DNA of 64,000 bases, taken from NCBI RefSeq assembly GCF_009914755.1, contig NC_060935.1. The stretch is one strand, 5' to 3'. A program made the position numbers and the translations under genes. Within the stretch, counting starts at the first letter, position 1; the number at the start of each line of letters is the position of its first letter. Shown one piece after another: positions 27,622 through 57,042 of this stretch. The notes below the pieces were generated by a model. That model was not told the DNA's origin and made no database searches. It saw nothing but the letters and a program-made list of their open reading frames with translations. Source of the DNA: the human T2T-CHM13v2.0 reference genome, Homo sapiens.

Positions 27622-28034
27622 TGTCCGGCATCTGAGTCCAAGCTAAGCCATCCTATCCCCTGTGACCTGCACGTACACATCCAGATGGCCAGTTCCTGCT
27701 TTAACTGATGACATTCCACCACAAAAGAAGTGAAAATGGCCTGCTCCTGCCTTAACTGATGTCATTATCTTGTGAAATTCCTTCTCCTGGCTCATCCTGG
27801 CTCAAAAGCTCCCCTACTGAGCACCTTGTGACCCCCACACCTGCCCGCCAGAGAACAACCCCCCTTTGACTGTAATTTTCCTTTACCTACCCAAATCTTA
27901 TAAAATGGCCCCACCCCTGTCTCCCTTCACTGACTCTTTTCAGACTCAGCCCGCCTGCACCCAGGTGAAATAAACAAGCCTTGTTGCTCACACAAAGCCT
28001 GTTTGGTGGTCTCTTCACACAGACACGAGTGAAA
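27622..28034 (+). promoter_or_regulatory. LTR7 promoter/enhancer (5' LTR of provirus 1)
   Basis: Duplicated ttaactgatg enhancer block with ACAAAAGA at 27721-27728, TATAAAA at 27899, GC/CACCC box, AATAAA at 27969; intact downstream splice donor G/GTAAG at 28181. Activity is inferred, not shown. Confidence 0.75.
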
Positions 28035-28505
28035 TTTGGTGCCATGACTCAGATCGGGGGACTTCCCTTGGGAGATCAATCCCCTGTCCTCCTGCTCTTT
28101 GCTGCGTGAGAAAGATCCACCTATGACCTCGGGTCCTCAGACCAACCAACCCAAGGAACATCTCACCAATTTTAAATCGGGTAAGCGGCCTCTTTTTACT
28201 CTCTTCTCCAACATCTCTCACTATCCCTCAACCTCTTTCTCCTTTCAATCTTGGCACCATCTTTCAATCTCTCCCTTCTCTTAATTTAAGTTCCTTTCCT
28301 TTTCTGGTAGAGACAGAGGAGATGTGTTTTATCCGTCAACCCAAAACTCTGGCGCCGGTCACGGACTCGGGAAGACAGTCTTTCCTTGGTGTTTAATCAC
28401 TGTGGGGACACCTGCTTGATTATTCATCCACGTTTCAGAGGTGTCTGATCACCATGGGGATGCCTGCCTTGATCCTTCACCCTTAGTGGCAAGCATGGCT
28501 ATTTT

Positions 28506-28815
28506 GGGGGGCAAGCCCCCCCAACCCTTGTCTCCATGTCTCTGCCCTCTCTTTTCTCTCCACTTTCCTGGGGGGCAAGCACCCCCTACCCCTTCTCTCC
28601 ATATACCTACCCCTTCTCCACTTTCCTGGGGGCAAGCACCCCCCACCCCTTCTCTCCATGTCTCTACCCTCTCTTTTCTCTCCACTTTCCTGCGGGGCAA
28701 GCACCCCCCCCCCACCCCTTCTCTCTGTGTCTCTACCCTCTCTTTTCTCTCCACTTTCCTGGGGGCAAGCATCCCCCACCCCCTTCTCTCCATGTCTCTA
28801 CCCTCTCTTTTCTCT
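28506..28815 (+). repeat. HERV-H leader tandem repeat, 5 units of ~58-68 bp
   Basis: Repeated gggggcaagcaccccc...ttctctccatgtctctaccctctcttttctctccactttcct. Confidence 0.9.
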
Positions 28816-29765
28816 GGGCTTGCTTCCTTCACTATAGGCAACCTTTCACCCTCCACTCCTCCTCCTTCTCCCTTAGCCTGTGTTCTCAAGAACTTAAAAC
28901 TGCTTCTAAATCACAGCTGACCTAAAACCTAAACACCTTATTTTCTTCTGCAATGCCGCTTAACCCCAATACAAACTCGACAATGGTTCCAAATAGCCAG
29001 AAAACGACACTTTCAAATTTTCCATCCTATAAGATCTAGATAATTCTTGCCATAAAATGGGAAAATGGTCTGAGGTGCCTGATGTCCAGGCATTCTTTTA
29101 CACAGCCGTCCCTCTCCAGTCAATGTTCCCAATGCAACTTGTCCCAAATCTTCCTTCTTTCCCTCCTGCCTGTCCCCTCAGGCCCAAACCCAAGTATTGC
29201 TGAGTCTTTCCAATCTTCCTTTTTTACAGACCCATCTGACCTCTCCCCTCCTCCCCAGGCTGCTCCTCCCCAGGCCAAGCCAGGTCCCAATTCTTCCTCA
29301 GCCTCTGCACCCCAACCCTATAATCCTTTTATTACCTCCCCTCCTCACACCTGGTCTGGCTTATAGTTTCATTCCACTACTAGCCCTCCCCTACCTGCCC
29401 AGCAATTTCCTTTTAAAAAGGTGGCTGGAGCTAAAGGCATAGTCAAGGTTAATGCTCCTTTTTCTTTATCTGACCTCTCCCAAATCAGTTAGCATTTAGG
29501 CTCTTTTTCATCAAATATAAAAACCCAGCCCAGTTCATGGCTTATTTGGCAGCAACCCTGAGATGCTTTACAGCCCTAGACCCTGAAAGGTCAGAAGGCC
29601 GTCTTATTCTGAATATGCATTTTATTTTATTACCCAATCCACACCGAATATCAAATAAAGCTCCAAAAATTAAATTCTGGCCCTTAAACTCCACAACAGA
29701 ACTTAATTAACCTCACCTTCAAGGTGTACAATAATAGAGAAAAGTTATAATTACTTGCGTTTACT

Positions 29766-31550
29766 GTGAGACAAAACCCAGCCGCACCTCCAGCACACAA
29801 GAACTTCAAAATGCCTAAGTCGCATGTGCCTAAGCCGCAGCAGTCAAGCATTCCTGCAGGACCTTCTCCATCAGGATCTTGCTTCAAGTGCCAGAAATCT
29901 GGCCACTGGGCCAAGGAATGCCCACAGCCCAGGATTCCTCCTAAGCCATGTCCCATCTGTATAGGACCCCACTGAAAATCAGACTGTCCAACTCACCCGG
30001 CAGCCGCTCCCAGAGCCCCTGGAACTCTGGCCCAAGGCTCTCTGATTCCTTCCCAGATCTTGGCTTAGTGGCTGAAGACTGATGCTCCCCGATCACCTCA
30101 GAAGCTTCCTGGACCATCACAGACACTTTGGGTAACTCTTACAGTGGAGGGTAAGTCCATCCCCTTCTTAATCATTACAGAGGCTACCCACTCCACATTA
30201 CCTTCTTTTCAAGGGCCTGTTTCCCTTGCCTCCATAACTGTTGTGGGTATTGACAACCAGGCTTCTAAGCCTCTTAAAACTCCCCAACTCTGGTGCCAGT
30301 TTGGACAATATTCTTTTATGCACTCCTTTTTAGTTATCCCTGCCTGCCCAGTTCCCTTATTAGGCCGAGACATTTTAACTAAATTATCTGCTTCCTATGC
30401 TACAGCCACACCTCATTGCCACCCTTTTCTCCAGTTCAAAGCCTCCTTCACATCCTGCTCTTGTATCTCCCCATTTTAATCCACAACTATAGGATACCTC
30501 TACTCCCTCCTTGGTGACCGATCATGCACCCCTTACCATCCCATTAAAACCTAATCACCCTTACCCCACTTAAGGCCAATATCCCATCCCACAGCACACT
30601 TTAAAAGGATTAAAGCCTGTTATCACTTGCCTGTTACAACATGGCCTTTTAAAGCCTATAAACTCTCCTTACAATTCCCCCGTTTTACCTGTCCTAAAAC
30701 CAGACAAGCCTTACAGATTAATTCAGGATCTGCACCTTATCAACCAAATTGTGTTGCCTATCCACCCCATGGTGCCAAACCCATATACTCTCCTATTCTC
30801 AATACCTCCCTCCACAACCCGTTCTGTTCTAGATAAACCTAGCTGACCCCATAAATCCTAAATCCTTTCCCCACTCCCCTTTCCATTCCTTAAAAAACAG
30901 CCCTAAAAGCTGCTCCCACACTAGCTCTCCCTAACTCATCCCAACCCTTTTCATTACACACAGCTGAAGTGCAGGGCTGTGCGGTCAGAATGCTTACACA
31001 AGAGCTGGGACTGCACCCTGTAGCCTTTTTATCCAAACAACTTGACCTTACTGTTTTAGTCTAGCCCTCATGTCTGCATGCAGCTGCTGCCACTGCCTTA
31101 ATACTTTTAGAGGCCCTCAAAATCACAAACTATGCTCAACTCACTCTCTACAGTTCTCATAACTTACATAATCTATTTTCTTCCTCACACCTGATACATA
31201 TACTTTCTGCCCCCTTCCACTACCTCTCAGCAAGCCGAACTCATTGCCTTAACTTGAGCCCTCACTCTTCCAAAAGGACTGCACGTCAATATTTATACTG
31301 ACTCTAAATATGCCTTCCATATCCTGCACCACCATGCTGTTATATGGGCAAGAAGAGGTTTCCTCACTATGCAAGGGTCCTCCATTATTAATTCCTCTTT
31401 AATAAAAACTCTTCTCAAGGCCGGTTTACTTCCAAAGGAAGCTGGAGTCATTCACTGCAAGGGCCGTCAAAAGGCATCAGATCCCATTGCTCAGGGCAAC
31501 GCATAGGCTGATAAGGTAGCTAAAAAAGCAGCTAGTGTTCCAACTTCTGT
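29766..31550 (+). pseudogene. HERV-H gag(NC)-pro-pol remnants of provirus 1
   Basis: CFKCQKSGHWAKEC zinc knuckle; protease-like FLIITEATHS...LLGRDILTKL; fragmented RT/RNase H. Confidence 0.9.
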
Positions 31551-32102
31551 CCACCCCCAAAATTTTTGCTGCCCCAACACTTCAATACTATTTTATGTGA
31601 TTTTTCTTATTAATATAAGAAGACAGGAATGTCAGGGCTCTGAGACCAAGCTAAGCCATCATATACCCTGTGACCTGCTTGTATACATCCAGATGGCCCA
31701 AAGTAACTGAAGAATCACAGAAGAAGTGGAAATGGCCTGTTCCTGCCTTAACTGATGACATTACCTTGTGAAATTCCTTCACCTGGGTCATCCTGGCTCA
31801 AAAGCTCCCCCACTGAGCACCTTGTGACCCCCACCCCTGCCAGTCAAAGAACAACCCCCTTTGAGTGTAATTTTCCACTACCTACCTAAATCCTATAAAA
31901 CGGCCCGACCCCTATATCCCTTTGCTGGCTATATCCCTTCACTGGCTCTCTTTTTGGACTCAGCCTGCCTAGACCCAGGTGATTAAAAAGCTTTATTGCT
32001 CACACAAAGCCTGTTTGGTGGTCTCTTCACACGGTCGTGTGTGAAAATCATTTTTTAATTTAATCTACACAATGAATTCTATGACTCAAGTGCTATTATT
32101 AT

Positions 32103-32811
32103 TTAAACTGCCTTTACAAAAATCATAATTGAGGAAATTATGACAGTGGAAATTATGACAACCCCATCTTCCTTCTAACCTCTAAACTGTCTTTGTCCAT
32201 TCCTGGGCATAGGCCTTGGGAAAGAATTTAGTTTATAGTTTAAATTCTGAAACAAAATATTGCTAATAGTCTTTTCCCAAAAAAAACCCCTTCTTGCCTG
32301 AGGACCAGTCTGTCTTTGTCAGACTAACAAATCAGCCACAAAATTAGAGATTGTGGTTCAGGGGCCATGCAGCCTCTGGCTGTAGGAGTCTGAATCTCCC
32401 CAAATTGCTCCTGGGAATAACATCACTGTTGCAAAACTTAAGATAGGTGCTTGAGATATTTTGCAGACCCGGCAATCCCGCAGCAGATAACACCACTCAG
32501 GCCAATAATCTGGCTCAACCAATTTGGCGATCCCACCCAGGAACAGAAGTCATCAAGAATAACTCACTTCGACCCCCCTATGATTTCATCTTTAAACCGA
32601 CCAATCAGCACTCCCACTTTTCTAGGCCTTACCTGCCAACTTATCCTTAAAAACTGATCCCTGAATGCTCTGGGAGGCTGATTTGAGTAATAATAAAACT
32701 GGTTTCCCACACAGACTTCTCTGCATGAATTACTTTTGCCATTGCAATTCCCTTCTTAATAAATAGGCTCTGGGTAGGCAGCAGGAAAGGTGAACCCAAT
32801 GGGCAGTTACA
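32103..32811 (+). mobile_element. ERV1 solo LTR (LTR8/LTR8A-like) inserted in a MIR
   Basis: aaactgcctttacaaaa...gggcagttaca; 4-bp TSD ttat (32099-32102 and 32812-32815); MIR sequence continues on both sides. Confidence 0.8.
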
Positions 32812-33551
32812 TTATATTTTATAAATGAAGAACCTGAGGTTTAGAAAGATTAAGTAATTTAGCATAGGTAGTACATGTAATAAATGCTGGAGTTGAAATA
32901 CAAACACAGAGAAATTCCAAAGCTGATATTCTTTACCATGACACTAATATAAGGCAGAAGTTTTAAGAGTGGTTGAAAAATGCTCACAGTCAACTTGGAA
33001 GAAAGACAGGTAGGAGTGATACATATACATGGAGATTGAGGAGAGGCTGGAAAGAAGACAACTGGCAAAGAATGTCACATTGGCAAAGGCAGGGAGGTAG
33101 GCGTTTACATAGAGATTTAGGCATAATGGGTTGAAACTATTTATAGAGTTTAGGGTGATAATAATGAAAAGCTAAGAACCAAAACTGTGGAGATTATCAG
33201 GTTGTTTCTCATTTAGTTGAAAGTGCAGGGGGAGGGAAAGAATTATCAAGCTTAGTCAGAAAAACATCTCTTAACCACGAAATGCAAAGACTTGAAAAAC
33301 AAACCCTAAACTACAAATGTCAGAGAGTACTTCACTCTGAGATTTGAATCCAAATGCCATTAAAAGTTTATTACTTCCTGAAGAAATGCAGTCATTGAGA
33401 TGTTGATGGGTGAACTTTTACTTAAAAAGGTTATTCTGAAATGCTGTGGTTCTTAATGGAGTTTTTTTTTTAAACCATGCTTTCTGATAGGAAACTTAGC
33501 AACCAGGGACTTTGCTCACCCTATACCCTTGAGACACTACTGTCCTCCAAA

Positions 33552-33858
33552 TGTTGTAGGACTTTCTGCTTTCTCCTTAGTTCAGCTAAAAATGGGGTTC
33601 TTGTCACATGACCAGGAAGGATGAAGCTCATGAATACATAGAAGTGTGCAAAAAATGGAATTTATTGGGTGAAAAGGAAAAAAAACAAAACTAATCTCAC
33701 AGATTGGATTCCCAGGTGACCACCCAAGAACAGAAGAGGCCAGGCTCCTCCCCACTGCAAATGGTGTGAACTTCCTGAGGCTCCACCCCAGTTTGCACTC
33801 CTCCCAGTGCAGGTTGGTCAGAGGTTCTCTGGGGACCTCTTTTTACTTGGCTCTCTCA
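33552..33858 (-). mobile_element. ERV1 solo LTR (MER61/MER50-like)
   Basis: TG...CA ends with 4-bp TSD caaa (33548-33551 and 33859-33862); antisense AATAAA at 33661. Confidence 0.65.
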
Positions 33859-34164
33859 CAAACTTCCTTTACTTGGATTATGCTTAACTATCCTTCAAAG
33901 ATCAACTCTGGTAGAAAGAGCATTGGAGGGATCCAGATGGTAGACAGATCACACACATTTATTCCTGGAAACTGAGCCATAGCCCTGCAGACTGTCTTTC
34001 CATCATTCATATTAGAAGCCATGGCCCTGTTGGCAAGGGATTTACAGAGGAAGGAGAATGTCTGAAAACTGTATTTCAGAACACCAAACTGGAAGGGGTG
34101 TTCTCTGGGTCAATACCTCCCTAGGGGTTGCTGTAAATAATAAGTGATCTCAAGTCCTTTCTAG

Positions 34165-34634
34165 AAAAATGGCTCAGAATAGGCTACTCAAAATATGGTG
34201 CCTTCATGTATTGAATATTTTAAGCTGAAGGAATTTGAGAAACAGCAGGTTTTCTCTCCTGAAGCAGGTCATAAGACTCTCATGTGAGAGGTGCCCTTCC
34301 TATACCTGGAAGAAAGGAGCATCCTTATCTCCGAACATGCCAAGAATAATATGAACAAACAGGCCTTGATCAGTTTTCCCCAATTTACTACCCTTAGCTC
34401 ATACCCTTTTATTTTATCACTTTCTACTCCTCACCAAACTTAGTGTAAAAACACTCAGGCTTAACCATTTCTTCAGATCTTTATTTCCTTGTGAAGACTC
34501 CCATGTTATGTAAAACTTATATTAAATAAATTTGTATGTTTTTCTCAATAATATTTCTTTTGCAAGTCCAGTTTACAGGGCCCCATATGGAGAACCCAGG
34601 AGGGTGTACAAAGAATAATTTTTTCCTCTACTAC
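34165..34634 (+). mobile_element. ERV1 solo LTR (MER34/MER39-like)
   Basis: tattgaatattttaagctgaaggaatttgaga...taaataaatttgtatg...ttcctctactaca. Left boundary approximate. Confidence 0.6.
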
Positions 34635-35183
34635 ACCAGTATCTTCCCAAACCCAGCACACACTAACCATTTACTTACAGAAGTCCACTCAGATGAACCA
34701 AGACATCAATCTTCTTGTCTTTAAGCAATAATTATTTTAGCTCACAGTGGTAACACTGGTTTACCTGTGATCATCGGAAATCTTGATTGACAGTTTGCCT
34801 TTGGTTACCAAAAGATGAAAAGAAAAATTTCTAATGATAAAATAACACAACAAAAGTGAAATACTAATAAATAAATATGGCAGACATTTTTGTGTCTTCA
34901 TTTTGTTGATAAGGAAGTTGAGACTCAGAGAGCTGAATGAACTTGTCTAAGCTAGTAAGTGAAGCTGGGACTTGAACTCAGAGCATTTGATTCCAAAATA
35001 TGAGCTCTTTACTGTTATTTAACTGTTATTATGAGGGGAAGGAGCTTCTACATAAACCACAGGAATAAGGGGAGGATCCTCAATAAGAAGAATTAGAAAA
35101 GTAAGTAAAACTATAATTATGGGAAGAATTAGAAAAGTAAATACAACTACAATTATGAGTCTAGATTGAATTAGATGGCTTCA

Positions 35184-38410: not shown

Positions 38411-39096
38411 AGGAGATGTGAGATCACAGGAAGTGCAGCAGGTATTCTTGGTTGTTTCCAAAATACCCATTCTCCCCTTCTTCCTTATTGCTCTGTTTTG
38501 GGACAGCAGGATGTTTAGTTAGAAAACTGTATTTCCCTGCCTCCCTTGCTATTTGGGGAAACCAGTGAGATGTAAGTAGAATTCATTGGGTGGAGTTTGT
38601 ATCTAATCTCTCTTAAAGGGACAGACTCAGTTATCTTCTTCCCTCCATATTTCCTAGATGGCAGACATGATGCCTATATTGTGTCAGGCCAGGTTTCACT
38701 AACAGCTGAACAGGCAAACCTCTAACAACTGTTTCAGCACTGACTGAGTGGTTAAGTTAAATATTAAAAGCTGAAAGAGTCAGTACCCTTATACAAAGGC
38801 TGGAATGTAACAAAAACCCACCAAGAGTTTTGCCCAGGCCTTTCTTGGGCCTTGAAGTATGATGAGATAATGAAGGAATTCTTAACAAGACCCGTTTAGG
38901 ATTAAACAAGTTTTATTGAGGGTCTGAAGAAACTCCCAAGACCTCTAAAAACAAGTTTTATTGGGGATCTAAAGGAAATCCCCAAACCTCCATGATTTAG
39001 CAGGAGAGAAGATTGCCCCCAGCACCTGGATCCATCCAGATTAAGTAAATTTACAGAGGCTCCAGAGGAAGGTCTTCAAAACTCAGACCTTAGTTA

Positions 39097-42000
39097 TTCA
39101 CTCGTGTCCATATGAAGAGACCACCAAACAGGCTTGGTGTGAGCAACAAGGCTGTTTATTTCATCTGGGTGCAGGCAGGCTGAGTCTGAAAAGAGGGTCA
39201 GTGAAGCGAGATAGGGGTGGGGCTGTTTTATAAGATTTAGGTAGGTAAAGGAAAATTACAGTCAAAGGGGAGTTGTTCTCTGGCGGGCAGGAGTGTGGGT
39301 CACAAGGTGCTCAGTGGGGGAGCTTTTTGAGCCAGGAGAAGGAATTTCAGAAGGTAATGTCATTAGTTAAGGCAAGGACTGGCCATTTTCACTTCTTTTG
39401 TGGTGGAATGTCATCAGTTAAGGCAGGAACAGGCCATTTAAAATTCACTTCTTTTGTGATTCTTCAGTTACTTCAGGCCATCTGGATGTATAGGTGCAGC
39501 TCACAGGGGATAATGATGGCTTAGCTTGGGCTCAGAGGCCTGACATTCCTGTCTTCTTATATTAATAAGAAAAATAAAATAGTGTTAAAGTGTTGGGGTG
39601 GTGAAAATTTTTGGGGGTGGTATGGAGAGATAATGGGCGATGTTTCTCAGGGCTGCTTTGAGCGGGATTAGGGGTGGCATGGAAACTTAGAGTGGGAGAG
39701 ATTAAGCTGAAGGAAGATTTTTTGGTAAGGGGTGATATTGTGGGGTTGTTAGAAGGAGCATTTGTCGTATAGAATTATTGGTGATGGCCTGGATACAGTT
39801 TTATATGAATTGAAAAAAGAACAGAATAAGACAAGGAGAAAAACAGGTATTAAAGGACTAAGAATTGGGAGGACCTAGGACATCCAATTAGAGAGTGCCC
39901 AAGGAGGTTCAGCATAGCCCTGCCAGCAAAGATTTATTTACTTTAAGAGGGTGTTAAGAGTGGCTATTTGGAGATAGCACCAGGAGATATGAGCTGTGAT
40001 GGCTTGGAGAAACAGTGTAAACCGGCAGTGTAAACAAAAGCAGGGCATTTATGAGAAGTTGAGAATGGTGAATAGGAGTATGACTAGACAGAAGATAGTA
40101 GGGATGACAAGTTTTTTGGGGCACAGTCCAAGTTGGTCTGGTGTCTGGAATGAGACTGGGGCCTAATAAAAAGGAGCGTCTATACAGGAGCTCAAATGGG
40201 CTGTACCCTGTAGCATTCTGAGGACAGGCCCGAATTCTGAGAAGGCAAGTGGTAAAGGTATTGTCCAGTCCTTTTTAAGTTGGTGGCTGAGCTTGGTGAG
40301 GTGTGTTTTTAAAAGACCATTAGTCCGTTTTACCTTTCCTGAAGATTGAGGACCATAAGGGGTATGAAGGTTTCACTTAATACCAAGAGCCTGAGAAACT
40401 GCTTGGGTGATTTGACTAATAAAGGCCAGTCTGCTATCGGAGTGTATAGAGGTGGGAAGGCTAAACTGAGGAATTATGTCTGACAAAAGGGAAGAAATGA
40501 CCGCAGTGGCCTTCTTAGACCCTGTGGGAAAGGCCTCTACCCATCCAGTGAAGGTGTCTACCCAGACCAAGAGGTATTTTAGTTTCCTGACTCGAGGCAT
40601 GTGAGTAAAGTCAATTTGCCAGTACCGAGCTTGATGCGTAGGGAGGGGAGGGGGGGCCTGAGAAATCCCTGAGGAGGAGTAGAATAGCAGATGGAACACT
40701 GAGAAGTGATTTCCTTGAGGACAGATTTCCATGATGGAAAGGAAATGAGAGGTTCTAAGAGATGGGCTAGTGGCTTGTAACCTACATGGAAGAGGTTATG
40801 AAATGACGACAGAATAGAATGGGTCGGTAAGACTAGAAAAGCAGCCCAAAGTAGCTGCATGGTCTGCAAAGACTTTTCCGTATTTTATTCAAATAGCACC
40901 TCATCAGCAAACCTTAGCGAATATTCAAACTCGGTTTCGACAGTCTTCTGAATCCCAGTCAAAACATTTCAACGTACATCACTTCATCTGATCCCCCCGC
41001 AATAGGCCTGGCAGTGACTTGGGGCTGGAACCAGTATCCAGTACCTACCACAGTGCTTGGCACATGGTAATAGCTCAGCGAACTGCCATCATTTTATAAA
41101 GGAAGAGACAGGCTGGAAGGAGATATTTTCCTTGGTCTAAGAACCATTTGCCTTGTGTGGGAAGAGATTGATAAGTGGAAGTTTCAATGGGGGAGTGGGA
41201 GGGAGTGACCAAAGTGAAGAAGAAAAACTGACCGTGAGGGACAGAAGTTGGAACGCTAGCTGCTTTTTTAGCTAACTTATCAGCATAAGCATTGTCCTGA
41301 GCGATGGGATCTGATGCCTTTTTGATGGCCCTTGCAGTGAATGACTCCAGCTTCCTTTGGAAGTAAAGTGGCTTTGAGAAGCGTTTTTATTAAAGAGGCA
41401 TTAATGATAGAGGACCCTTGTGTAGTGAGGAAACCTGTTGCATGGTGGTGCAGGATATGGAAGGCATGTTTAGAGTCAGTATAAATATTGATGTGTAGTC
41501 CTTTTGCAAGAGTGAGGGCTTGACTTAAGGCAATGAGAGGTAGTGGAGGGGGGCAGAGCTGTAGCCTCAATGATAGATGTGGAAGATACAATGGCATAGC
41601 CTGCCTTTGCTGGTGAGTGGCGATTAGGCCTGTTGGAACTGCCATCAATAAAGCAAGTGTGTTCACGGTGAGGAACAGGAAAGAAGGAAATATGGGGAAA
41701 TGGGGTGAATGTCAGGTGGATCAGAAAGATACTGTCATGGGGGTCAGGTGTGGTATCTGGAATAATGTGGTAGGCCCAATTGAAGTCTGGGCCAGGAACA
41801 ATGGTAATTGTGGGAGACTCAACAAAGAGTGAGTACAGCTGAAGGAGCCGGGGAGCAGAAAGTGTATGTGTCAGGTGTGAGGAAGAAAATAGATTTTGGA
41901 AGTTATGAGAACGGTAGAGAGTGAGTTGAGCATAGTTTATGATTTTAACGGCCTCTACAAGTATTAGGGCAGCGGCAGCCACTGCACGCAGGCTTGAGGG

Positions 42001-45000
42001 CTAGGCAAAAGAGTCAGGTCAAGTTGGATAAAAAAGCTACAGGGCGTGGTCTTGGTCCTTGTATAAGAATCCTGACTGCACAGCCCTGCACTTCAGCTGT
42101 GGGTAATGAAAAGGGTTGGGATGAGTCAGGGAGAGCTAGGGTGGGGGCAGTCTCTAAAGCTGTCTTCAAGGAACAGAAAGAGGAGTGGGGAAAGGATTTA
42201 GGATCTATGGGGTCAGCTAGGTTTCCTTTTGTGAGTTTATATAATGGTTTTGTTAGGATGGCAAAACCAGGTATCTAAAGTCGAAAGTATCTAACCATGC
42301 CTAAGAAGGAAAGGAGTTGTTTTGTAGAAGGTGTTGGGGTTTGAGAGATCAGTGGGACATGATCAGCAGGGAGAGCATGTGTGTTTTTATGAGAATTATG
42401 CTGAGATAGGTAACAGATGAGGAAGAAATTTGGGCTTGACTGAAGTAATGGGAGCTGTCTGTGAAGCTTTGTGGCAGTACAGCCCCGGTAATTTGCTGAG
42501 CCTGATGGGTGTCAGGGTCAGCCCAAGGGAAAGCGAAGAGAGGCTGGGATGAAGGGTGCAAAGGAATAGTAAAGAAAGCATGTTTGAGATCCAGAACAGA
42601 ATAATGGATTGTGGAGGGAGGTGTTGAGGATAGGAGAGTATATGGATTTGGCACCACGGGGTGGATAGGCAAAACAATTTGGTTGATAAGATGCAGATCC
42701 TGAACTAACCTGTAAGCCTTGTCTGGTTTTACGACAGGTGAAATGGGGGAATTTTAAGGGGAGTTTATAGGCTTTAAAAGGCCATGCTGTAGCAGGTGAG
42801 TGATAACAGACTTTAATCCTTTTAAAGCGTGCTGTGGGATGGCATATTGGCATTGTGCGAGGTAAGGGTGATGAGGTTTTAATGGGATGGTAAGGGGTGC
42901 GTGATCAGTCACTAAGGAGGGAGTAGAGGTATCCTATACTTGTGGGTTAAGGTGGGGAGATTCAAGGGGAGGATGTGAAGAAGGCTTTGAACTGGGGGAA
43001 AAGGCAGCAAGGAGGTGTGGCTGTAGCCCAGGAATAGTCAGGGAAGCAGATAATTTAAAGTGTCTCAGCCTAATGGGGAGGTCGGGATAACTGAAAAGGA
43101 GTGCTTAAAAGCGTATTGTCTAAGTTGACACCAGAGTTGGGGAGTTTTAAGAGGTTTAGAAGCCTGGCCTTCAATGCCCACAACAGTTACGGAGGCAAGG
43201 GAAACAGGCCCTTGAAAAGAAGGTAATGTGGAGTGGGTAGCCTCCGTATTGATTAAGAAGGGGACGGACTTATCCTCCACTGTGAGAGTTACCTGAAGAT
43301 CGGCATCCCTGATGGTCTAGGGGGCTTCTGAGGTGATCGAGCAGCGTCAGTCTTCAGCTGCTAAGCTGAAGGAGTCAGTCAGAGAGCCTTGGGCCAGAGT
43401 TCCAGGGGCTCTGGAAGCGGCTGCCAGGTGAGTTGAACAGCCTGATTTTCAGTGGGGTCCTGCACAGATGGGACATGGCTTAGGAATCCCAGGCTGGGGG
43501 CATTCCTTGGCCCAGTGGCCAGATTTCCGGCACTTGTAGCAAGCTCCTGGGGGAGGTGGGGTTGGTGGAATGCCTGGCAGCTGCGGTTCAGGCGTTTGGA
43601 AGTTCTTGTGTGCTGGAGATGTGGCTGGGGTTTGTCTCACAGTGGAGGCAAGGAATTGCAACTCAGAAATACATTGCTACTTGGCTGCCTCTACTCTATT
43701 ATTGTACACCTTGAAGGCAAGGTTAATTAAGTCCTGTTGTGGGGTTTGAGGGCCGGAATTTAATTTTTGGAGCTTTATTTAATGTCGGGAGCAGATTGGG
43801 TAATAAAATAAAATGCATATTGAGAGTAAGACGGCCTTCTGACCTTTCAGGGTCTAGGGCTGTAAAGTGTCTCAGGGTTGCTGCTAACTGGGCCATGAAC
43901 TGGGCTGGGTTTTTCGTATTTCATGAGAAAGAGCCTAAATGCTAATTTATTTGGGAGAGGTCGGATAAAGAAAAAGGAGCATTAACCTTGACTATGCCTT
44001 TAGCTCCAGCCACCTTTTTAAGAGGAAATTGCTGGGCAGGTGGTGGAACAGAACTGTAAGCCGGACCGAGTGTGAGGAGGGAAGGTGATAAAAGGATTAT
44101 AGGGTGGAGGAGCAGAGGCTGAGGAAGAATTGGGACCTAGCTCGGGCTGGCGAGGAGGGGAGAGGTCAGATGGGTCTGTAGAAAAGGAAGATTAGAAAGA
44201 CTCAGCGACGCTTGGGGTTGGGACTGAGGGGACAGGCAGGAGGGAAAGAAGAAAGATTTGGGACAAGTTGCATTGGGAACAGAAACTAGAGAGGGACCGA
44301 TTTGTGAAAGAACGCCTGGCCATCAGGCACCTCAGATCATTTGCCTATTTTATGACAAGAATTATTTAGATCTTGGAGGATGGAAAAATCAAAAGTGCCA
44401 TTTTCTGGCTATTTGGAACCACTGTCAAGTTTGTATTGGGGTCAAGCAGCATTGCAGAAGAAAATAAGGTGTTTAGGTTTTAGGTCAGGTGACAGTTGAG
44501 GTTTTAAGTTCTTGAGAACACAGGTGGATCTTTCTCACAGAGCAAAGAGCAGGACAGGGGATTGATCTCCCGAGGGAGATTCCCCCCTCCCATCCAAGTC
44601 AGGGCACGAAAATTTCACTCGCGTCCATGTGAAGAGACCACCAAACAGGCTTTGTGTGAGCAACAAGGCTGTTTATTTCACCTGGGTGCAGGCAGGCTGA
44701 GTCTGAAAAGAGATTCAGTGAAGGGAGAATAGGGGTCGGGCCGTTTTATAAGATTTAGGTATGTAAAGGAAAATTACAGTCAAAGGAGGGGGGTTCTCTG
44801 GCGGGCAGGAGTGGGGGTCCAGGGTGCTCAGTGGGGGAGCTTTTTGAGCCAGGATGAGCCAGGAGAAGGAATTTCAGAAGGTAATGTCATTAGTTAAGGC
44901 AAGGACTGGCCATTTTCACTTCTTTTGTGGTGGAATGTCATCAGTTAAGGCAGGAACAGGCCATTTAAAATTCACTCCTTTTGTGATTCTTCAGTTACTT

Positions 45001-45072
45001 CTGGCCATCTGGATGTATAGGTGCAGGTCACAGGGGATATGATGGCTTAGCTTGGGCTTAAGAGGCCTGAGA
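39097..45072 (-). mobile_element. HERV-H provirus 2 (~6.0 kb)
   Basis: 5' LTR 44613-45072, degenerate His PBS 44592-44609, gag CYKCRKSGHWAKEC, protease, RT LDLKHAFF, integrase WQIDFTHMP, 3' LTR 39097-39545; TSD gttat/agtta on both sides. Confidence 0.97.
40824..41109. other. 286-bp non-viral insert in pol of provirus 2
   Basis: Provirus 3 reads gaatggg-cctgtg-aggctggaagg at the homologous site; here cctgtg is replaced by unrelated sequence containing L2/MIR-like motifs. Confidence 0.9.
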
Positions 45073-46132
45073 GTTATAGATTAGAAGTTAATCACTTGCG
45101 TCTTTAGAGGCATACACACTTAAATGTAGACGTATAGCTTAGAAGGTACATAAGCTCTGGAAAACTTTGTAATTTTGAGTTGGTCTGGCAATATTTTCCA
45201 GGCCTTCTTTCTGTACCTGGTTACAGAAAAAAACTCCCCTCTTTTCCCAGTTCATCTGCATCTCATTATTGGGCCATAAGAATAAACAGCCTGACCCTCG
45301 GTTTGGTCCAGGAACAATATGAAGCAACCATGAGAAGACCTCCAGGAGAGAAGCGCCAGTTAAGGAAACAGAATAGAAAGATTGGGAAGTAAACTAGGGC
45401 ATGAAAAATATTTTTAGAGATGAGATACCAGAGTATGTTTGCATGTTGGTGTGAGCCAGGGGCATGATGGCAGGACTGCAGCCCTTGAAAAGGCCAGAGT
45501 AGAGAGATCCTGGGCATATGTTGATGACTTGGCCTTTGACAGGCTGCTGCAGAGGGTGTAGGACACTTCCAGTGCTCCTTTCCTGAGGAAAATACCTGTG
45601 GCAACTCTCACATTCCATTGCCCTTTTCATCCTTTGTCCTTTTCCCCACAGACTGGAAACTTCTGTCTCTTCCTCCTCAAAGTCATTCCTCACACTGCTG
45701 CCACAGTGAGCGTTCTAAAACGCACATATGATTTTTAAAACACTGAGGAGCTCCTCATTGCTTACAGGATGAAGTAACATCCTTGCCTTGTATTTAGACA
45801 TTCTCTCCTTGGTCTTTTCAGCTTCCAGTCTTCAGCATTTCCTAAGCATTCTATGTACCAGGCATACCTGGCTGTTTGCACGTCCCTAAAGGTGCCTGTA
45901 TTTTCCCCACTATATGCATTTCTTCATACTTTCCCCTTGTCCTATACCCTTCTTTCTTTCTCTTTGCACAGATTTACCTTCAAGGAGCATTCTCTGCCTA
46001 CTCCCACTCCAGGTTCCCACTGCAGATTCTCCTTAACTCTGTGAGCTGCCCAGAAGTCTCCCATAAAATATATATTCTTGACTAAATTAGCTGGAGTTTA
46101 TGGATCAGAGATGCCATATAAAATATAATTTT

Positions 46133-50678: not shown

Positions 50679-53600
50679 TTTCACTTGCATCTGTGTGAAA
50701 AGACCACCAAACAGGCTTTGTGTGAGCAACAAGGCTGTTTATTTCACTGGGTGCAGGCAGGCTGAGTCCGAAAAGAGAGTCAGTGAAGGGAGATAGAGGT
50801 GGGGCCATTTTATAAGATTTGGGTAGGTAAAGTAAAATTACAGTCAAAGGGGGGTTCTCTGATGGGCAGGAGTGGGGGTCACAAGGTACTCAGTGGGGGA
50901 GCTTTTGAGCCAGGATGAGCCAGAAGGAGTTTCACAAGACAATGTCATCAGTTAAGGCAGGAACCAGCCATCTGGATGTGTACGTGCAGGTAACAGGGGA
51001 TATGATGGCTTAGCTTGGGCTCAGAGGCATGACATTCCTGTCTTCTTATATTAATAAGAAAAATAAAATGAAATAGTGGTAAAGTGTTGGGACAGTGAAA
51101 ATTTTGGGGGATGGTATGGAGAGATAATGGGCGATGTTTCTCAGGGCTGCTTCGAGCAGGATTAGGGGCCGCTTGGCAACCTAGAGTGGGAGAGATTAAG
51201 CTGAAGGAAGGTTTTGTGGTAAGGGGTGATATTGCGGGGTTGTTAGAAGAAACATTTGTCATGTAGAATTATTGGTGATAGCCTGGATAAGGTTTTGTAT
51301 GAATTGGAAAACTAAATGGAATAAGAGAAGGAGAAAAACAGGTATTAAAGGTTTAAGAATTGGGAGGACCCAGGACATCTAATTAGAGTGCCTAAGGAGA
51401 TTCAGCATAGTCCTGCCAGCAAAGATTATTTATTTACTTCAAGAGTTAAGAGTGGCAGTTTGGGGATAGCACCAGGAGATATCAGCTGCGATGGCTTGGA
51501 GAAACAGTGTAAACCGGCAGTGTAAACAAGAGCAGGGCATCTATGAGTAGTTGAGAATGGTGAATGGGAGTATGACTAGACAGAAGATAGTAGGGATGAC
51601 AAGTTATTTGGGGCACAGTCCAAGTTGGTCTGGTGTCTGGAATGAGACTGGGGCTTAATAAAAAGGAGTGTCCATACAGGAGCTCAAATGGGCTGTACCT
51701 TGTAGCATTCCAAGGACAGGCCTGAATTCTGAGAAAAGGAAGTGGTAAAAGTATTGTCCAGTCCTTTTTAAGTTGTTGGCTGAGCTTGGTGAGGTGTGTT
51801 CTTAAAAGACCATTAGTCCGTTCTACCTTTCCTGAAGACTGAGGACTGTAAGGGATATAAAGGTTTCACTTAATACCAAGAGCCTGAAAAACTGCTTGGG
51901 TGATTTGACTAATAAAGGCCAGTCCACTGTCAGACTGCGTGGAGGTGGGAAGGCCAAACCGAGTAATTATGTCTGACAGAAGGGAAGAAATGACTGCGGT
52001 GGCCTTCTCAGATCTTGTAGGAAAGGCCTCTACCCATTCAGTGAAAATATCTACCCAGACCAAGAGGTATTTTAGTTTTCTGACTTGGGGCATGTGAGTA
52101 AAGTCAATTTGCCAGTCTTGGGCAGAGACAAATCCCTGAGCTTGATGTGTAGGAAAGGGAGGGGGCCTGAACAATCCCTGAGGGGTAGTAGAATAGCAGA
52201 TGGAACACTGAGAAGTGATCTGCTTGAGGATAGGTTTCTATGATGGAAAGGAAATTAGAGGTTCTAAGAGATGGGCTAGAGGCATGTAACCTACATGGAA
52301 GAGGTTATGAAATGATGACAGAATAGAATGGGCCTGTGAGGCTGGAAGGAGATATTTTCCTTGGTCTAAGAACCATTTGCCTTGTGTGGGAAGAGATTGA
52401 TAGTTGGAAGTTTCAGCGGGGGAGTAGGTGGGAGTGACCGATGTGAAGGAGAAAAACTGGCCGTGAGGGACAGAAGTTGGAGAGCTAGCTGATTGTCTAG
52501 CCACCTTATCAGCATAAGCGTTGCTGTGAGAGACAGAAGTTGGAAGGCTAGCTGCTTGTCTAGCCACCTTATCAGCATAAGCGTTGCCTAGATCAATGGG
52601 ATCTGACACCTTTTGATGCCCCTTGCAGTGAATGACCCCAGCTTCCTTTGGAAGTAAAGCGGCCTTGAGCAGAGTTTTTACTAAAGAGGCATTAATGACA
52701 GAGGACCCTTGTATAGTGAGGAAACCTCTTGCATGGTGGTGCAGGATATGGAAGGCATATTTAGAGTCAGTATAAATATTGACGTTTAGTCCTTTTGCAA
52801 GAGTGAGGGCTTAACTTAAGGCAATGAGTTCAGCTTGCTGAGAGGTAGTGAAGGGGGGCAGAGCAGTAGCCTCAGTGATAGATGTGGAAGATGCTATAGC
52901 ATAGCCTGCCTTTGCTGGTGAGTGGCGATTAGGCCTGGTGGAACTGCCATCAATAAACCAAGTGTGTTCAGGGTGAGGAACAGGAAATAATATGGGGAAA
53001 TGGAGTGAATGTCAGGTGGATCAGAGAGATACAGTCATGGGGTGTGGTATCAGGAATAATGTGGTAGACCCGATTGAAGTCTGGACCAGGAACCATGGTA
53101 ATTGTGGGAGACTCAACAAAGAGTGAATACAGCTGAAGGAGCTGGGAAGCAGAAAGTATATGTGTCAGGTGTGAGGAAGAAAACAGATTTTGGAAGTTAT
53201 GAGAACTGTAGAGAGTAAGTTGAGCATAGCTTGTGATTTTAAGGGCCTCTGAAAGTATTAGGGCAGTGGCAGCCACCACACACAGACTTGAGGGCTAGGC
53301 AAAACAGTAAGGTCAAGTTGTTTGAATAAAAAGGTTACAGGGTGCGGTCCTGGTTCTTGTGTTAGAATTCTGACTGCACAGCCCTGCACTTCAGCTGTGG
53401 GTAATGAAAAGGGTTAGGATGAGTCAGGGAGAGCTAGGGTTGGGGCAGTCTCTAAAGCTGTCTTTAAGAAATGGAAAGAGGAGTGGGGAAAGGATTTAGG
53501 ATCTATGGGGTCAGCTAGGTTTCCTTTTGTGAGTTTATATAATGGTTTTGTTAGGATGGCAAAACCAGATATCTAAAGTTGAAAGTATCTAACCATGCCT

Positions 53601-56600
53601 AGGAAGGAAAGGAGTTGTTTTGTAGAAAGGATTGAGGTTTGGGAGATTAGTCAGACATGATCAGCAGGGAGAGCACGTGTGTTCTTATGAGAATTATGCC
53701 GAGATAGGTAACAGATGAGGAAGAAATTTGGGCTTGACTGAAGTAATGGGGGCTATCTGTAAAGCCTTGTGGCAGTACAGCCCAGGTAATTTGCTGAGCC
53801 TGATGGGTGTCAGGGTCAGTCTAAGTGAAAGCGAAGAGAGGCTGGGATGAAGGGTGCAAAGGAATAGTAAGGAAAGCATGTTTGAGATCCAGAACAGAAT
53901 AATGAGTTGTGGAGGGAGATATTGAGGATAGGAGAGTATATGGATTTGGCACCACGGGGTGGATAGGGAAAACAATTTAGTTGATAAGGCTCAGATCTTG
54001 AACTAACCTGTAAGGCTTGTCTGGTTCTAGGACAGATAAAATGGAATTGTAAGGAGAGTTTATAGGCTTTAAAAGGCCATGCTGTAGCAGGCAAGTGATA
54101 ACAGGCTTTAATCTTTTTAAAGCACACTGCAGGATGGGATATTGGCGTTGAGTGGGGTAAGGGTGATTAGGTTTTAATGAGATGGTAAGGGGCTCATGAT
54201 CGGTTGCCAAGGACGGAGTAGAGGTATCCTATACTTGTTGGTTAAGGTGGGGGGATACAAAAGGAGGATGCAAAGGAGGCTTTGGATTGGGAAGAAGGGT
54301 GGCAATGAGATGTGGCTGTATCCCAGGAATAGTCAGGGAAGCAGATAATTTAGTTAAAGTGTCTCGGCCTAATAAGGGAACTGGGCAGGTGGGTATAACT
54401 AAAAAGGAGTGCTTAAAAAGTATTGTCTAAGTTGGCACCAGAATTGGGGAGTTTTAAGAGGTTTAGAAGCCTGGCCATCAATACCCACAACAGTTATGGA
54501 GGCAAGGGAAACAGGCCCTTGAAAAGAAGGTAATGTGGAATGGGTATCCTCCATATTGATTAAGAAGGGGACGGACTTACCTTCCACTGTGAGAGTTACC
54601 TGAAGCTCGGCATCTGTTATGGTCTAGGGGGCTTCCAAGGCCATCTGGCAGCATTAATCTTCAGCCCCTAAGCTGAGAAGATCTGGGAAGGAGTCGGTCA
54701 GAGAGCCTCAGGCCAGAGTTCCAGGGGCTCTGGGAGTGGCTACTAGGTGAGTTGAACAGTCCAATTTTCAGTGGGGTCCTGCACAGATGGGACATGGCTT
54801 AGGAGGAATCCCGGGCTTAGGAGGAATTCCTTGACCTGGTGGCCAGATTTCTGGCACTTGTAGCAAGCTCCTGGGGGAGGTGGGCCTGGAGGAACATCTG
54901 GCCACTGTGGTTTAGGCATTTGGAAGTTCTTGTGTGCTGGAGATGTGGCTGGGGTTTGTCTCACAGTGGAGGCAAAGAATTGCAACTCAGAAATATGTTG
55001 CTACTTGGCTGCCTCCACTCTATTATTGTACACCTTGAAGGTGAGGTTAATTAAGTCCTGTTGTGGGGTTTGAGGGCCAGAATTTAATTTTTGGAGTTTT
55101 ATTTAATGTTGGGAGGATATTGGGTAATAAAATGTATATTGAGAATAAGACGGCCTTTTGACCTTTTATGGTGTAGGGCTGTAAAGCATCTCAGGGTTGC
55201 TGCCAAATGAGCCATGAACTGGGCTGTGTTTTTATATTTGATGAAAAAGAGCCTAAATGCTCTCCAATTTGGGATAAAGAAAAAGAAGCATTAACCTTGA
55301 CTATGCCTTTAGCTCCAGCCACCTTTTTAAGAGGAAATTGCTGGGCAGGTGGGGGTGGGCTACTCATGGAATGAAAATGTAAGCCTGACAGGGTGTGAGG
55401 TGGGGAGGTGATAAAAGGATTATAGGGTGGAGGAGCGGAGGCTAAGGAAGAATTGGGACCTAGCTCAGTCTGGCAAGGAGGGGAGAGGTCAGATGGGTCT
55501 GTAGAAAAGGAAGATTAGAAAGACTCAGTGACACTTGGGGTTGGGACTGAGGGGACAGGTGGGAGGGAAAGAAGGAAGATTCGGGACAAATTGCATTGGG
55601 AACAGAGACTAGGGAAGGACTGATGTGTAAAAGAAGGCCTGGGTGTCAGGCACCTCAGACCATTTACCCATTTTATGACAAGAATTATCTAGATCTTGTA
55701 GGATGGAAAAATCGAAAGTGCCATTTTCTGGCTATTTGGAACCACTGTCGAGTTTGTATTGGAGTCAAGTGGCATTGCAGAAGAAAATAAGGCATTTAGG
55801 TTTTAGGTCAGGTGTGAGTTGAAGAGGTTTTAGGTTTTTAAGAACACAGGCTAAGGGAGAAGAAGGGGGAATGGAGGGTGGAAGCTTGCCTATAGTGAAG
55901 GGGGCAAGCCCGGACAAAAGAGTAGAGACACGGAGGGAAGGGGTTTGGGGGTTCTTAACCTCCAGAAAATTAGGAAAGGGGTCAGGGCGTGGAAATAAGG
56001 GGTTGGGGTGCAGAGATAAGTGGTCAGGGAGCAGAAATAAGGGATCGGGGTGCAGAGATAGAGGTTGGGGCACAGATATAAGTGATCAGGGCACAGAGAT
56101 AAGGGGTCAGGGCGTGGAAATAAGGCATTGGGGGGTTCTTGCTCCCCCAGAAAAGCAGAGAAGGGGTAGAGACAGGGAGCGAAGGGGTCGGGGGTTCTTT
56201 CCCCTCCCCCAGAAAAGCGGGACTTGCCACTAAGGGTGAAGGACCAAGGCAGGCGTCCCTGCGTGGTCAGACACCTCTGAAACGTGGGTGAATAATCAGA
56301 GAGGCGTCCCTGCAATGATTAAACACCAAGGGAAGGCTGCCTTCCCAAGTCCGTGACTGGCGCCAGAGTTTTGGGTCCGTGGATAAAGTATGTCTCCTTT
56401 GTCTCTACCAGAAAATGAGAGGAATTGGAATTAAGAGAAGGGAGAGATTGAAGGGTGGCACCAAGACGGAAAGGAGAAAGTGGTTGAGGGATAGTGAGAG
56501 AGATTGGAGAAGAGAGTAAGAAGAGGCCGCTTACCTGACCTAAAATTGGTGAGATGTTCCTTGGGCTGGTGGGTCTGAGGACCCGAGGTCATAGGTGGAT

Positions 56601-57042
56601 CTTTTTCACGGAGCAAAGAGCAGGAGGACAAGGGATTGATCTCCCAAGGGAGGTCCCCCGATCTGAGTCATGGCACCAAATTTCACTCGTGTCCGTGTGA
56701 ACAGACCACCAAACAGGCTTTCTGTGAGCAACAAGGCTGTTTATTTCACCTGGGTGTAGGCGGGCTGAGTCTGAAAAGAGAGTCAGTGAAGGGAGATGGG
56801 GTGGGGCCATTTTATAAGGTTTGGGTAGGTAAAGGAAAATTACAGTCAAAGGGGGGTTGTTCTCTGATGGGCAGTAGTGGGGGTCACAAGGTACTCAGTG
56901 GGGGAGCTTTTGAGCCAGGATGAGCCAGGAGAAGGAATTTCACCAGACAGTGTCATCAGTTAAGGCAGGAACTGGCCATCTGGATGTGTACGTGCAGGTA
57001 ACAGGGGATATGATGGCTTAGCTTGGACTCAGAGGCCTGACA
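50679..57042 (-). mobile_element. HERV-H provirus 3 (~6.4 kb, most complete of the three)
   Basis: 5' LTR 56681-57042, His PBS 56661-56678, splice donor (cttac on + strand at 56530-56534), gag/pro/pol/IN remnants, 3' LTR 50679-51034; TSD atcat/attat with one mismatch. Confidence 0.97.
52462..52587 (-). repeat. 63-bp in-frame tandem duplication in the HERV-H RNase H region
   Basis: Two units at 52462-52524 and 52525-52587; ORF shows NAYADKVARQ twice. Confidence 0.95.

What the first reader, a model, noticed from the sequence alone, without database searches (positions are those of the whole stretch)
40824..41109. Captured 286-bp cellular sequence inside pol of HERV-H provirus 2
Seen: a clean replacement of 6 viral bases (cctgtg, compare provirus 3 at ~52333) by 286 bp of non-retroviral DNA, with no TSD and no poly(A). 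It contains L2-like (cagtgcttggcacatggtaatagctcag) and MIR-like pieces much older than HERV-H, several retained CpGs, and an AATAAA in proviral sense (tttatt at ~40884-40889). Inference: ancient repeats cannot have transposed into a younger provirus, so this was copied from another genomic locus. It arose either by templated insertion at a double-strand break or by transduction of co-packaged cellular RNA during reverse transcription. The AATAAA could end HERV-H transcripts before integrase.
Basis: partly seen in the sequence, partly recalled or inferred. Interest (0 to 1): 0.75.

Follow-up and report, generated by a model that had tools for sequence, protein, structure and literature searches.

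The report
Chromosome X patch inside HERV-H
A 286-base stretch inside an old, dead endogenous retrovirus on human chromosome 11 is a recent copy of a chromosome X sequence, pasted in when a DNA break was repaired; this kind of repair scar is already known.

Summary
Window 40824-41109 (286 bp) replaces six proviral bases (CCTGTG), which sit at this site in 25 of 30 other HERV-H copies fetched. There is no target-site duplication and no poly(A).

I found the donor. The assembly's own chromosome X (C23:134359444-134359723) matches window 40835-41114 at 100% over 280 bp. It is the only other full copy in the genome and has no retroviral flanks.

- **Right junction:** 5 bp of microhomology (AGGCT).
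- **Left junction:** 11 nt of filler with no traceable source.
- **Age:** the provirus's two LTRs differ at 20 of 445 aligned sites, whereas the patch differs from its donor at 0 of 275. The patch is therefore far younger than the provirus, probably younger than the human-chimpanzee split.

This rules out capture of cellular RNA by the replicating virus. It fits a templated sequence insertion at a double-strand break closed by end joining, the "class 2 TSIP" pattern.

Still open: whether the template was RNA/cDNA or DNA, and whether the insertion is fixed, polymorphic or private to this assembly.

The AATAAA is real, but it joins four other internal AATAAA hexamers on the same strand. The pol gene was already broken.

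Verdict: a clean new example of a known kind, of modest interest.

The parts
40824..41109 (+).
   Evidence: alignment with provirus 3; only two full-length places in the genome.
40824..40834 (+). Left-junction filler TCGGTAAGACT (11 nt). The next two bases, AG (40835-40836), match the donor, so the filler could be read as up to 13 nt. No source was found.
   Evidence: donor identity starts at 40835; no local source in the 64-kb window, 10 kb or 40 kb of chrX; three other exact 13-mers genome-wide, none with extended identity.
40835..41109 (+). Donor-derived patch, 275 bp. It is 100% identical to the minus strand of C23 (chrX) 134359449-134359723.
   Evidence: query 12-286, 100%; donor read in context.
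41110..41114 (+). AGGCT: 5-bp microhomology shared by the HERV-H target and the chrX donor at the right junction.
   Evidence: donor identity runs to window 41114. (three-way junction comparison).
40884..40889 (-). AATAAA hexamer in proviral sense, brought in with the patch. It is on the same strand as the sense strand of the X-linked exchanger gene at the donor.
   Evidence: same hexamer at C23:134359669 on the + strand.
39097..45070 (-). It has two LTRs and a heavily broken interior.
   Evidence: self-comparison; LTR ends, candidate 5-bp ATAAC duplication at the flanks; 16 stops in one 500-codon frame.
39097..39543 (-). 3' LTR of provirus 2.
44614..45070 (-). 5' LTR of provirus 2. Against the 3' LTR it shows 20 mismatches in 445 ungapped columns and 5 gap openings (K2P 0.046).
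41283..41711 (-). pol remnant, RNase H domain, just upstream (in proviral sense) of the insert.
   Evidence: PF00075, E 2.9e-07, 31.2 bits (cut-off 25.8).
40376..40884 (-). pol remnant, integrase, just downstream of the insert: zinc-binding domain at about 40684-40821 and core domain within 40376-40795, in two different frames.
   Evidence: PF17921, E 0.0019, 18.7 bits (below cut-off 25.5); PF00665, E 7.2e-15, 55.5 bits (cut-off 32.6).
52333..52338 (+). Comparator: the six bases CCTGTG at the intact (empty) site in provirus 3.

Best explanation
Long after HERV-H provirus 2 had integrated and decayed, its DNA broke between the RNase H and integrase parts of pol. The break was closed by end joining, with a roughly 280-base 'patch' copied from a single-copy locus on chromosome X. 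That locus lies 6.0 kb downstream of the last coding exon of the Xq Na+/H+ exchanger gene, and the donor itself stayed intact.

One broken end paired with the patch through 5 bases of microhomology (AGGCT). The other end was joined with 11 bases of filler. Six target bases (CCTGTG) were lost. This is a templated sequence insertion of the 'class 2' (break-repair) type.

**Shown:** the donor, the direction of transfer, the anatomy of both junctions, the uniqueness of the insert, and that it is much younger than the provirus.

**Inferred:** that a double-strand break was the trigger and that an end-joining pathway closed it.

**Open:** whether the patch came from RNA/cDNA or from a DNA fragment, and whether the event is fixed in humans, polymorphic, or private to this genome. 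It has no plausible effect on the already dead pol gene.
For: 1. **Donor.** One search found 3 matches of 3 candidates scored: the insert itself, C23:134359449-134359723 (minus strand, 100% over query 12-286), and a 44-bp 89% match on C5. extends the identity to window 41114, giving 280 bp. One search shows the chrX copy lying in continuous non-retroviral sequence.

2. **Direction.** The chr11 site is uninterrupted in 40 of 40 scored HERV-H copies. It holds 6 bases in 28 of 30 fetched loci, and these read CCTGTG in 25. So chr11 is the acceptor.

3. **Junctions.**
- 6-bp target loss, no TSD, no A-tail.
- AGGCT is shared at the right junction. By my own calculation, chance microhomology of 5 or more bases has a probability of about 0.005.
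- The 11-nt filler at the left has no local source. Only chance-like 13-mer matches exist elsewhere.

4. **Age.**
- There are 0 differences in 275 bp, including 7 CpGs.
- The LTRs show 20 of 445 mismatches, K2P 0.046. At that divergence about 12.7 differences would be expected, so P(0) is about 3e-6.
- At the recalled human-chimpanzee divergence of about 1.2%, about 3 differences would be expected for an event as old as that split, so P(0) is about 0.03-0.05.

5. **Fit to the described class.** The TSIP review PMC5110952 (whole main text read) defines class 2 TSIPs by the absence of a TSD, cryptic poly(A) signal and poly(A) tract, plus microdeletion, microhomology and non-templated addition. 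Donors stay intact. Experimental inserts measured 73-414 bp, median 191.
Against: - No reads or other human or ape assemblies could be consulted. An assembly error or an event in the cell line cannot be formally excluded, and population status is unknown.
- The break itself is inferred, not observed.
- A replication-based template switch would give a similar product.
- The filler has no identified origin.
- Nothing here shows that the donor is transcribed. By my recollection of the gene's 3' UTR length (about 2.5 kb; an AATAAA lies at C23:134355950), the donor lies about 3.5 kb beyond the usual transcript end, which gives no positive support to an RNA template.
- The age bounds rest on recalled substitution rates.
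Confidence: 0.8

Rival explanations
1. Replication-based template switching (FoSTeS/MMBIR). A stalled or collapsed fork in the provirus primed on chrX DNA through the AGGCT microhomology, copied about 280 bases, and switched back. The 11-nt filler would be a second very short template switch.
For: 5-bp microhomology at one junction and an intact donor. [quoted passage not shown]
Against: The return junction shows no microhomology, only filler with no findable template nearby. An inter-chromosomal jump for a single short segment is less typical by recall. Sequence alone cannot separate this from the best explanation.
Confidence: 0.13
2. Retroviral transduction. The replicating HERV-H picked up a co-packaged cellular RNA by template switching during reverse transcription, so the insert entered the genome with the provirus.
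For: The insert lies inside pol with clean junctions, and in proviral sense it has the same polarity as the sense strand of the neighbouring X-linked gene.
Against: 0 of 275 differences from the donor, against 20 of 445 between the provirus's LTRs. P is about 3e-6 if the two were the same age. No other HERV-H copy carries it: 2 full places genome-wide and 40 of 40 scored copies empty.
Confidence: 0.01
3. LINE-1-mediated retrotransposition in trans of a cellular transcript (class 1 TSIP or a processed-pseudogene-like event).
For: An AATAAA lies in the patch, 46 nt before its end on that strand.
Against: There is no TSD but a 6-bp deletion, and no A-tail: the end after the AATAAA is followed by filler AGTCTTACCGA in that sense, not by As. 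The target GGG/CCTGTG/AGG is not TTTT/A. An endonuclease-independent L1 reverse-transcription step cannot be excluded as the source of a cDNA patch, but that would fall under the best explanation.
Confidence: 0.02
4. Assembly or consensus artefact, or a somatic event in the cultured cell line, rather than an inherited human variant.
For: Only one assembly could be examined. 100% identity to the donor is what a very recent or artificial event would show.
Against: A return to the same locus with a 6-bp loss, a 5-bp microhomology and an 11-nt filler is the signature of cellular end joining, not of a mis-join of reads. By recall, the assembly is long-read based and polished. A cell-line event would still be the same mechanism.
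Confidence: 0.04

Closest known systems
Class 2 templated sequence insertion (polymorphism), TSI/TSIP (Onozawa and Aplan; review PMC5110952, main text read)
   Same: A short insert (here 275-280 bp; experimental range 73-414 bp) copied from a distant chromosome with the donor left intact. No TSD and no poly(A) tract. Microdeletion, microhomology and extra nucleotides at the junctions.
   Different: Polymorphism in human populations was not tested here. An RNA origin, favoured by those authors, is not shown here: the donor is not in an exon and lies 6 kb past the last coding exon of the nearest gene. An AATAAA is present in the patch, but no tail follows it.
Capture of mitochondrial DNA (NUMTs) or other DNA fragments at double-strand breaks
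   Same: Filler DNA is ligated or copied into a break by end joining, with microhomology and small deletions (described in PMC5110952).
   Different: The donor is nuclear (chromosome X), not mitochondrial.
Endonuclease-independent LINE-1 insertion at breaks (Morrish et al. 2002, as cited in PMC5110952; not read)
   Same: No TSD and no poly(A); it acts as a break patch.
   Different: The inserted sequence is not LINE-1. Involvement of L1 reverse transcriptase is not testable here.
Retroviral transduction of host sequences (oncogene-capture type)
   Same: Host sequence lies inside a provirus, replacing a few viral bases.
   Different: The insert is millions of years younger than the provirus and unique to this copy, so it arose in chromosomal DNA and not in a virion.
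Polymerase-theta-type templated insertions at end-joining junctions (recalled)
   Same: Microhomology use and extra nucleotides at the joint. The 11-nt filler could be of this kind.
   Different: By recall, such insertions are usually short (tens of bases) and copied from sequence near the break. The 275-bp patch comes from another chromosome.

Membership tests
Class 2 templated sequence insertion (TSI/TSIP) | [quoted passage not shown] | tested here: met
   280 bp at 100% identity to C23:134359444-134359723, which is continuous with its own flanks.
Class 2 templated sequence insertion (TSI/TSIP) | No target-site duplication | tested here: met
   six target bases are lost instead.
Class 2 templated sequence insertion (TSI/TSIP) | No poly(A) tract at either end | tested here: met
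   the ends are TCGGTAAGACT... and ...GGAAGAGAC.
Class 2 templated sequence insertion (TSI/TSIP) | End-joining marks: microdeletion, microhomology, non-templated nucleotides | tested here: met
   6-bp deletion, AGGCT microhomology, 11-nt filler. Whether the filler is truly untemplated cannot be proved (searches found no source).
Class 2 templated sequence insertion (TSI/TSIP) | No cryptic polyadenylation signal associated with the insert end | tested here: inconclusive
   An AATAAA lies 46 nt before the patch end on the minus strand. That is farther than the 10-30 nt given for class 1 in PMC5110952, and no tail follows.
Class 2 templated sequence insertion (TSI/TSIP) | Polymorphic among humans (the 'P' in TSIP) | not testable with these tools
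   Only one human assembly is held. Scans of genome contigs and viral contigs for the junction found 0 matches, which says nothing. The primary papers with TSIP lists are not held.
Class 2 templated sequence insertion (TSI/TSIP) | Derived from reverse-transcribed RNA | not testable with these tools
   No expression data. The donor is 6,009 bp past the stop codon of the nearest gene.
Class 1 TSIP / LINE-1-mediated retrocopy | TSD of at least 5 bp | tested here: not met
Class 1 TSIP / LINE-1-mediated retrocopy | Poly(A) tail 10-30 nt after a poly(A) signal | tested here: not met
Class 1 TSIP / LINE-1-mediated retrocopy | Insertion at a TTTT/A-like site | tested here: not met
   The target is GGG/CCTGTG/AGGCT.
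Retrovirally transduced host sequence | Same age as the provirus (divergence from donor similar to LTR-LTR divergence) | tested here: not met
   0 of 275 against 20 of 445.
Retrovirally transduced host sequence | May be shared by sister copies of the same viral lineage | tested here: not met
   no other copy; 40 of 40 scored copies empty (325 of 365 candidates not scored).
HERV-H provirus (the acceptor) | Paired LTRs flanking gag-pol remnants of a gamma-retrovirus-like element present in many copies | tested here: met
(LTR pair). (RVT_1, RNase_H, rve). (365 candidate copies). No repeat library was available.

The most novel reading that the evidence does not exclude
The patch is a human-lineage-specific, possibly still polymorphic, insertion. 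It would have been reverse-transcribed from an unannotated read-through or antisense transcript downstream of the X-linked Na+/H+ exchanger gene, and used to mend a break in a HERV-H locus in the germ line or early embryo, where by recall HERV-H is heavily transcribed. If so, it is a datable natural case of RNA-templated break repair. It also adds a new sense-strand AATAAA to a HERV-H transcription unit.
Probability: 0.2. Interest if true: 0.45.

Novelty: new member of a known kind. Interest (0 to 1): 0.3.

Why it matters
This is a very clean, fully resolved example of a break-repair 'patch' in the human genome. The donor, both junctions, the lost target bases and a relative age are all readable from the sequence. 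The provirus acts as a built-in clock showing that the event came after integration.

It shows that host sequence inside an endogenous retrovirus need not mean viral transduction. It also illustrates a simple test: compare identity to the donor with LTR divergence.

Biologically the consequences are probably nil, since pol was already dead. If the insertion proves polymorphic, it would be one more marker of the TSIP class.

Tried and rejected
- **Source of the 11-13 nt filler.** With up to 2 mismatches there were 2 matches in the 64-kb window: the filler itself and one 2-mismatch site at 11511. The chance expectation is 0.59, and 11 of 100 shuffles gave at least 2. There were 0 matches in 10 kb around the donor. 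One 1-mismatch 11-mer lies in 40 kb of chrX, about 23 kb away, against about 0.65 expected by my estimate. Genome-wide there are 4 exact 13-mers including the filler itself, against 56 and 60 for the reversed control. None of the three others shares any flanking base pattern with the junction. I rejected all of these as sources.
- **Repeat labels and the right junction.** I tried to show that an ancient repeat runs across the right junction at the donor. The whole-genome search gave only the 44-bp C5 match. The MIR/L2 labels remain untested.
- **Independent carriers.** Scans for the left-junction 35-mer in genome contigs and viral contigs found 0 and 0. These are uninformative.
- **Literature.** The primary TSIP papers with site lists (PMC4419790, PMC4040595) are not held, so I could not check whether this site is listed. 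A second search was looked at as a listing only.
I used stop-to-stop pieces instead.
- **Recent duplication of proviruses 2 and 3.** Rejected: they are 88-89% identical and their flanks share only short interspersed repeats.

Full report
**1. The observation**

- In provirus 2, ...CAGAATAGAATGGG is followed by 286 bp (40824-41109) and then AGGCTGGAAGGAGAT....
- In provirus 3 the same flanks enclose only CCTGTG (52333-52338).

A 140-bp query across the intact site of provirus 3 found 365 first-look candidates in the window's own genome. Forty were scored, and all 40 cover the query without interruption at 96-100% identity. The other 325 were not scored. In the 30 loci cut out, my pattern found six bases between the flanks in 28: CCTGTG 25, CCCGTG 1, CCTGTA 1, ACTGTG 1. 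Two loci did not match the pattern and I did not look at them further. So the filled state is the derived one, and six target bases were lost.

**2. The acceptor**

A self-comparison of the window shows three related proviruses:
- provirus 1 at 27627-32046 on the + strand;
- provirus 2 at 39097-45070 on the - strand;
- provirus 3 at 50679-57042 on the - strand.

Provirus 2 has LTRs at 39097-39543 and 44614-45070. They begin and end alike, and the flanks carry a candidate 5-bp duplication, ATAAC.

Stop-to-stop pieces of the minus strand hit these Pfam families (5 of 19 pieces had a hit):
- RVT_1 at 42352-42753 (29.5 bits, cut-off 29.6);
- RT_RNaseH_2 at 42017-42274 (25.3 bits, below cut-off 29.8);
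- RNase_H at 41283-41711 (31.2 bits, above cut-off);
- Integrase_H2C2 at about 40684-40821 (18.7 bits, below cut-off 25.5);
- rve at 40376-40795 (55.5 bits, above cut-off).

The gene is long dead: one 500-codon frame holds 16 stops, and the domains lie in different frames. It agrees with my recall of the LTR start and of the primer-binding-site-like text after the 5' LTR, but no repeat library was available to test it.

**3. The donor**

Searching the whole assembly with the 286 bp gave three matches of three candidates:
- the insert itself;
- C23 (chromosome X) 134359449-134359723 on the minus strand, 100% identical over query bases 12-286;
- a 44-bp, 89% match on C5.

Read in context, the chrX copy is embedded in ordinary non-retroviral sequence, with an Alu-like element upstream and unique sequence on both sides. 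A query reaching past the right end of the donor shows that identity with chr11 runs to window 41114. That makes 280 bp in total, and the last five (AGGCT) are also the first five proviral bases after the insert.

With the empty sites of section 1, this fixes the direction: chrX is the donor and chr11 the acceptor, and the donor was copied rather than moved.

**4. The junctions**

- **Right junction.** The provirus reads ...CCTGTG-AGGCT-GGAAGG and the donor reads ...GAAGAGAC-AGGCT-CAGGCAGG. The filled site goes from donor to provirus through the shared AGGCT. By my own calculation, under a random-junction model, microhomology of five or more bases has a probability of about 0.005.
- **Left junction.** Provirus ...AATGGG is followed by TCGGTAAGACT (11 nt), then the donor from AG-AAAAGCAGCC.

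I searched for a source of the filler:
- In the window with up to 2 mismatches there was only the filler itself plus one 2-mismatch site. The expectation is 0.59, and 11 of 100 shuffles gave at least 2.
- In 10 kb around the donor there were 0 matches.
- In 40 kb of chrX there was one 1-mismatch 11-mer, at chance level.
- Genome-wide there are 4 exact 13-mers including the filler itself, against 56 and 60 for the reversed control. The other three show no extended identity.

The filler's origin is unexplained. It may be untemplated addition, or a template switch too short to trace. There is no TSD, no A-run, and no TTTT/A-like target.

**5. Age**

The two LTRs of provirus 2 differ at 20 of 445 ungapped columns (10 transitions and 10 transversions, K2P 0.046), with 5 gap openings. 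The patch differs from its donor at 0 of 275 positions, although it holds 7 CpGs.
- If the patch were as old as the provirus, about 12.7 differences would be expected, so P(0) is about 3e-6.
- With the recalled human-chimpanzee divergence of about 1.2%, an event as old as that split would give about 3 differences, so P(0) is about 0.03-0.05.

The event is therefore most likely specific to the human lineage, and could be very recent. These absolute bounds rest on recalled rates. The relative statement, that the patch is much younger than the provirus, rests on the calls.

**6. Donor context**

A search with Pfam PF00999 (Na_H_Exchanger) finds exon-like matches on the + strand of C23 between 134306800 and 134333180.

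A translated comparison with the paralogous X-linked gene region, after masking shared repeats, picks out three further conserved coding pieces. The last runs into a stop codon ending at 134353435. By position this should be SLC9A6, but that name is recalled and no call gave it.

The donor begins 6,009 bp after that stop. AATAAA hexamers on the gene's strand lie at 134355950, 134356616, 134357892 and 134359669, and the last of these is the one inside the patch. By my recollection the usual 3' UTR is about 2.5 kb, so the donor probably lies beyond the annotated transcript. The gene's sense strand corresponds to the proviral sense strand in the window.

None of this decides between an RNA/cDNA patch and a DNA patch. 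Either polarity can be reconciled with annealing at AGGCT.

**7. Mechanism**

The anatomy matches point for point what the TSIP review calls class 2 templated sequence insertions (PMC5110952, main text read):
- a distant, intact donor;
- no TSD, no poly(A) tract;
- microdeletion, microhomology and extra nucleotides;
- a size within the experimental range of 73-414 bp.

The review attributes these to repair of a double-strand break with a patch. It favours reverse-transcribed RNA but concedes that template switching or break-induced repair remains possible.

I adopt break repair by end joining with a copied patch as the best explanation (0.8). Replication-based template switching is the main rival (0.13), and sequence alone cannot separate them.

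Three other readings fail or are unlikely:
- **L1-mediated retrocopying** fails all three defining features tested.
- **Retroviral transduction** fails on age and on uniqueness.
- **An artefact** is unlikely given the junction anatomy, but it could not be tested without reads.

**8. The AATAAA**

The hexamer is there (minus strand, 40889-40884). However, the same strand of provirus 2 already has seven AATAAA in all: one in each LTR, four other internal ones at 43951, 43779, 41391 and 39938, and this one. It also has four ATTAAA. Nothing singles this one out, and I had no 3'-end data.

**9. Verdict**

The thing is a new, unusually clean member of a known class of human insertion, and a functional effect is unlikely.

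Three questions stay open:
- population status (fixed, polymorphic or private);
- the nature of the template (RNA or DNA);
- the source of the 11-nt filler.

The supplementary TSIP lists of the primary papers could bear on the first question, but those papers are not held.

Noticed in passing
window 27627-32046 (+), 39097-45070 (-), 50679-57042 (-): Three related proviruses lie within 30 kb. They are 84-89% identical to each other and their flanks share only short interspersed repeats. They look like separate old integrations rather than a recent local duplication.
   Followed up: partly
window 28023-28180 and 30057-34886: According to the hub's gene table, the two exons of the lncRNA CCDC90B-AS1 in the window overlap provirus 1. 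The first straddles the end of its 5' LTR (LTR similarity runs to about 28033-28125). The last runs through the 3' half of the provirus and its 3' LTR (31636-32046) and beyond. So this lncRNA's 3' part is largely provirus-derived.
   Followed up: no
window 52463-52587: Provirus 3 carries a 63-bp tandem duplication (2.0 copies, 93% matches) in the RNase H-proximal part of pol. Provirus 2 lacks it.
   Followed up: partly
window 40624 (alignment columns 25-42): Provirus 2 lacks 18 bases (CTTGGGCAGAGACAAATC) that provirus 3 has at about 52117-52134, inside the integrase region. This is another private indel of provirus 2, unrelated to the patch.
   Followed up: no
window 39092-39096 and 45071-45075: A candidate 5-bp target-site duplication, ATAAC, flanks provirus 2. 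The exact LTR ends were judged by eye. The 5' LTR starts TCTCAGG where the 3' LTR has TGTCAGG.
   Followed up: partly
window 3120-5742 versus 21508-25109: Two 1.1-1.5-kb stretches recur at 87-88% identity, one direct and one inverted. They are probably fragments of one interspersed repeat family. I did not examine them.
   Followed up: no
L001 (C23:134354500-134364499) and L035-L038: The chrX donor lies 6.0 kb past the stop codon of an Na+/H+ exchanger gene. The C-terminal coding exons of that gene were located by comparison with its X-linked paralogue.
   Followed up: yes
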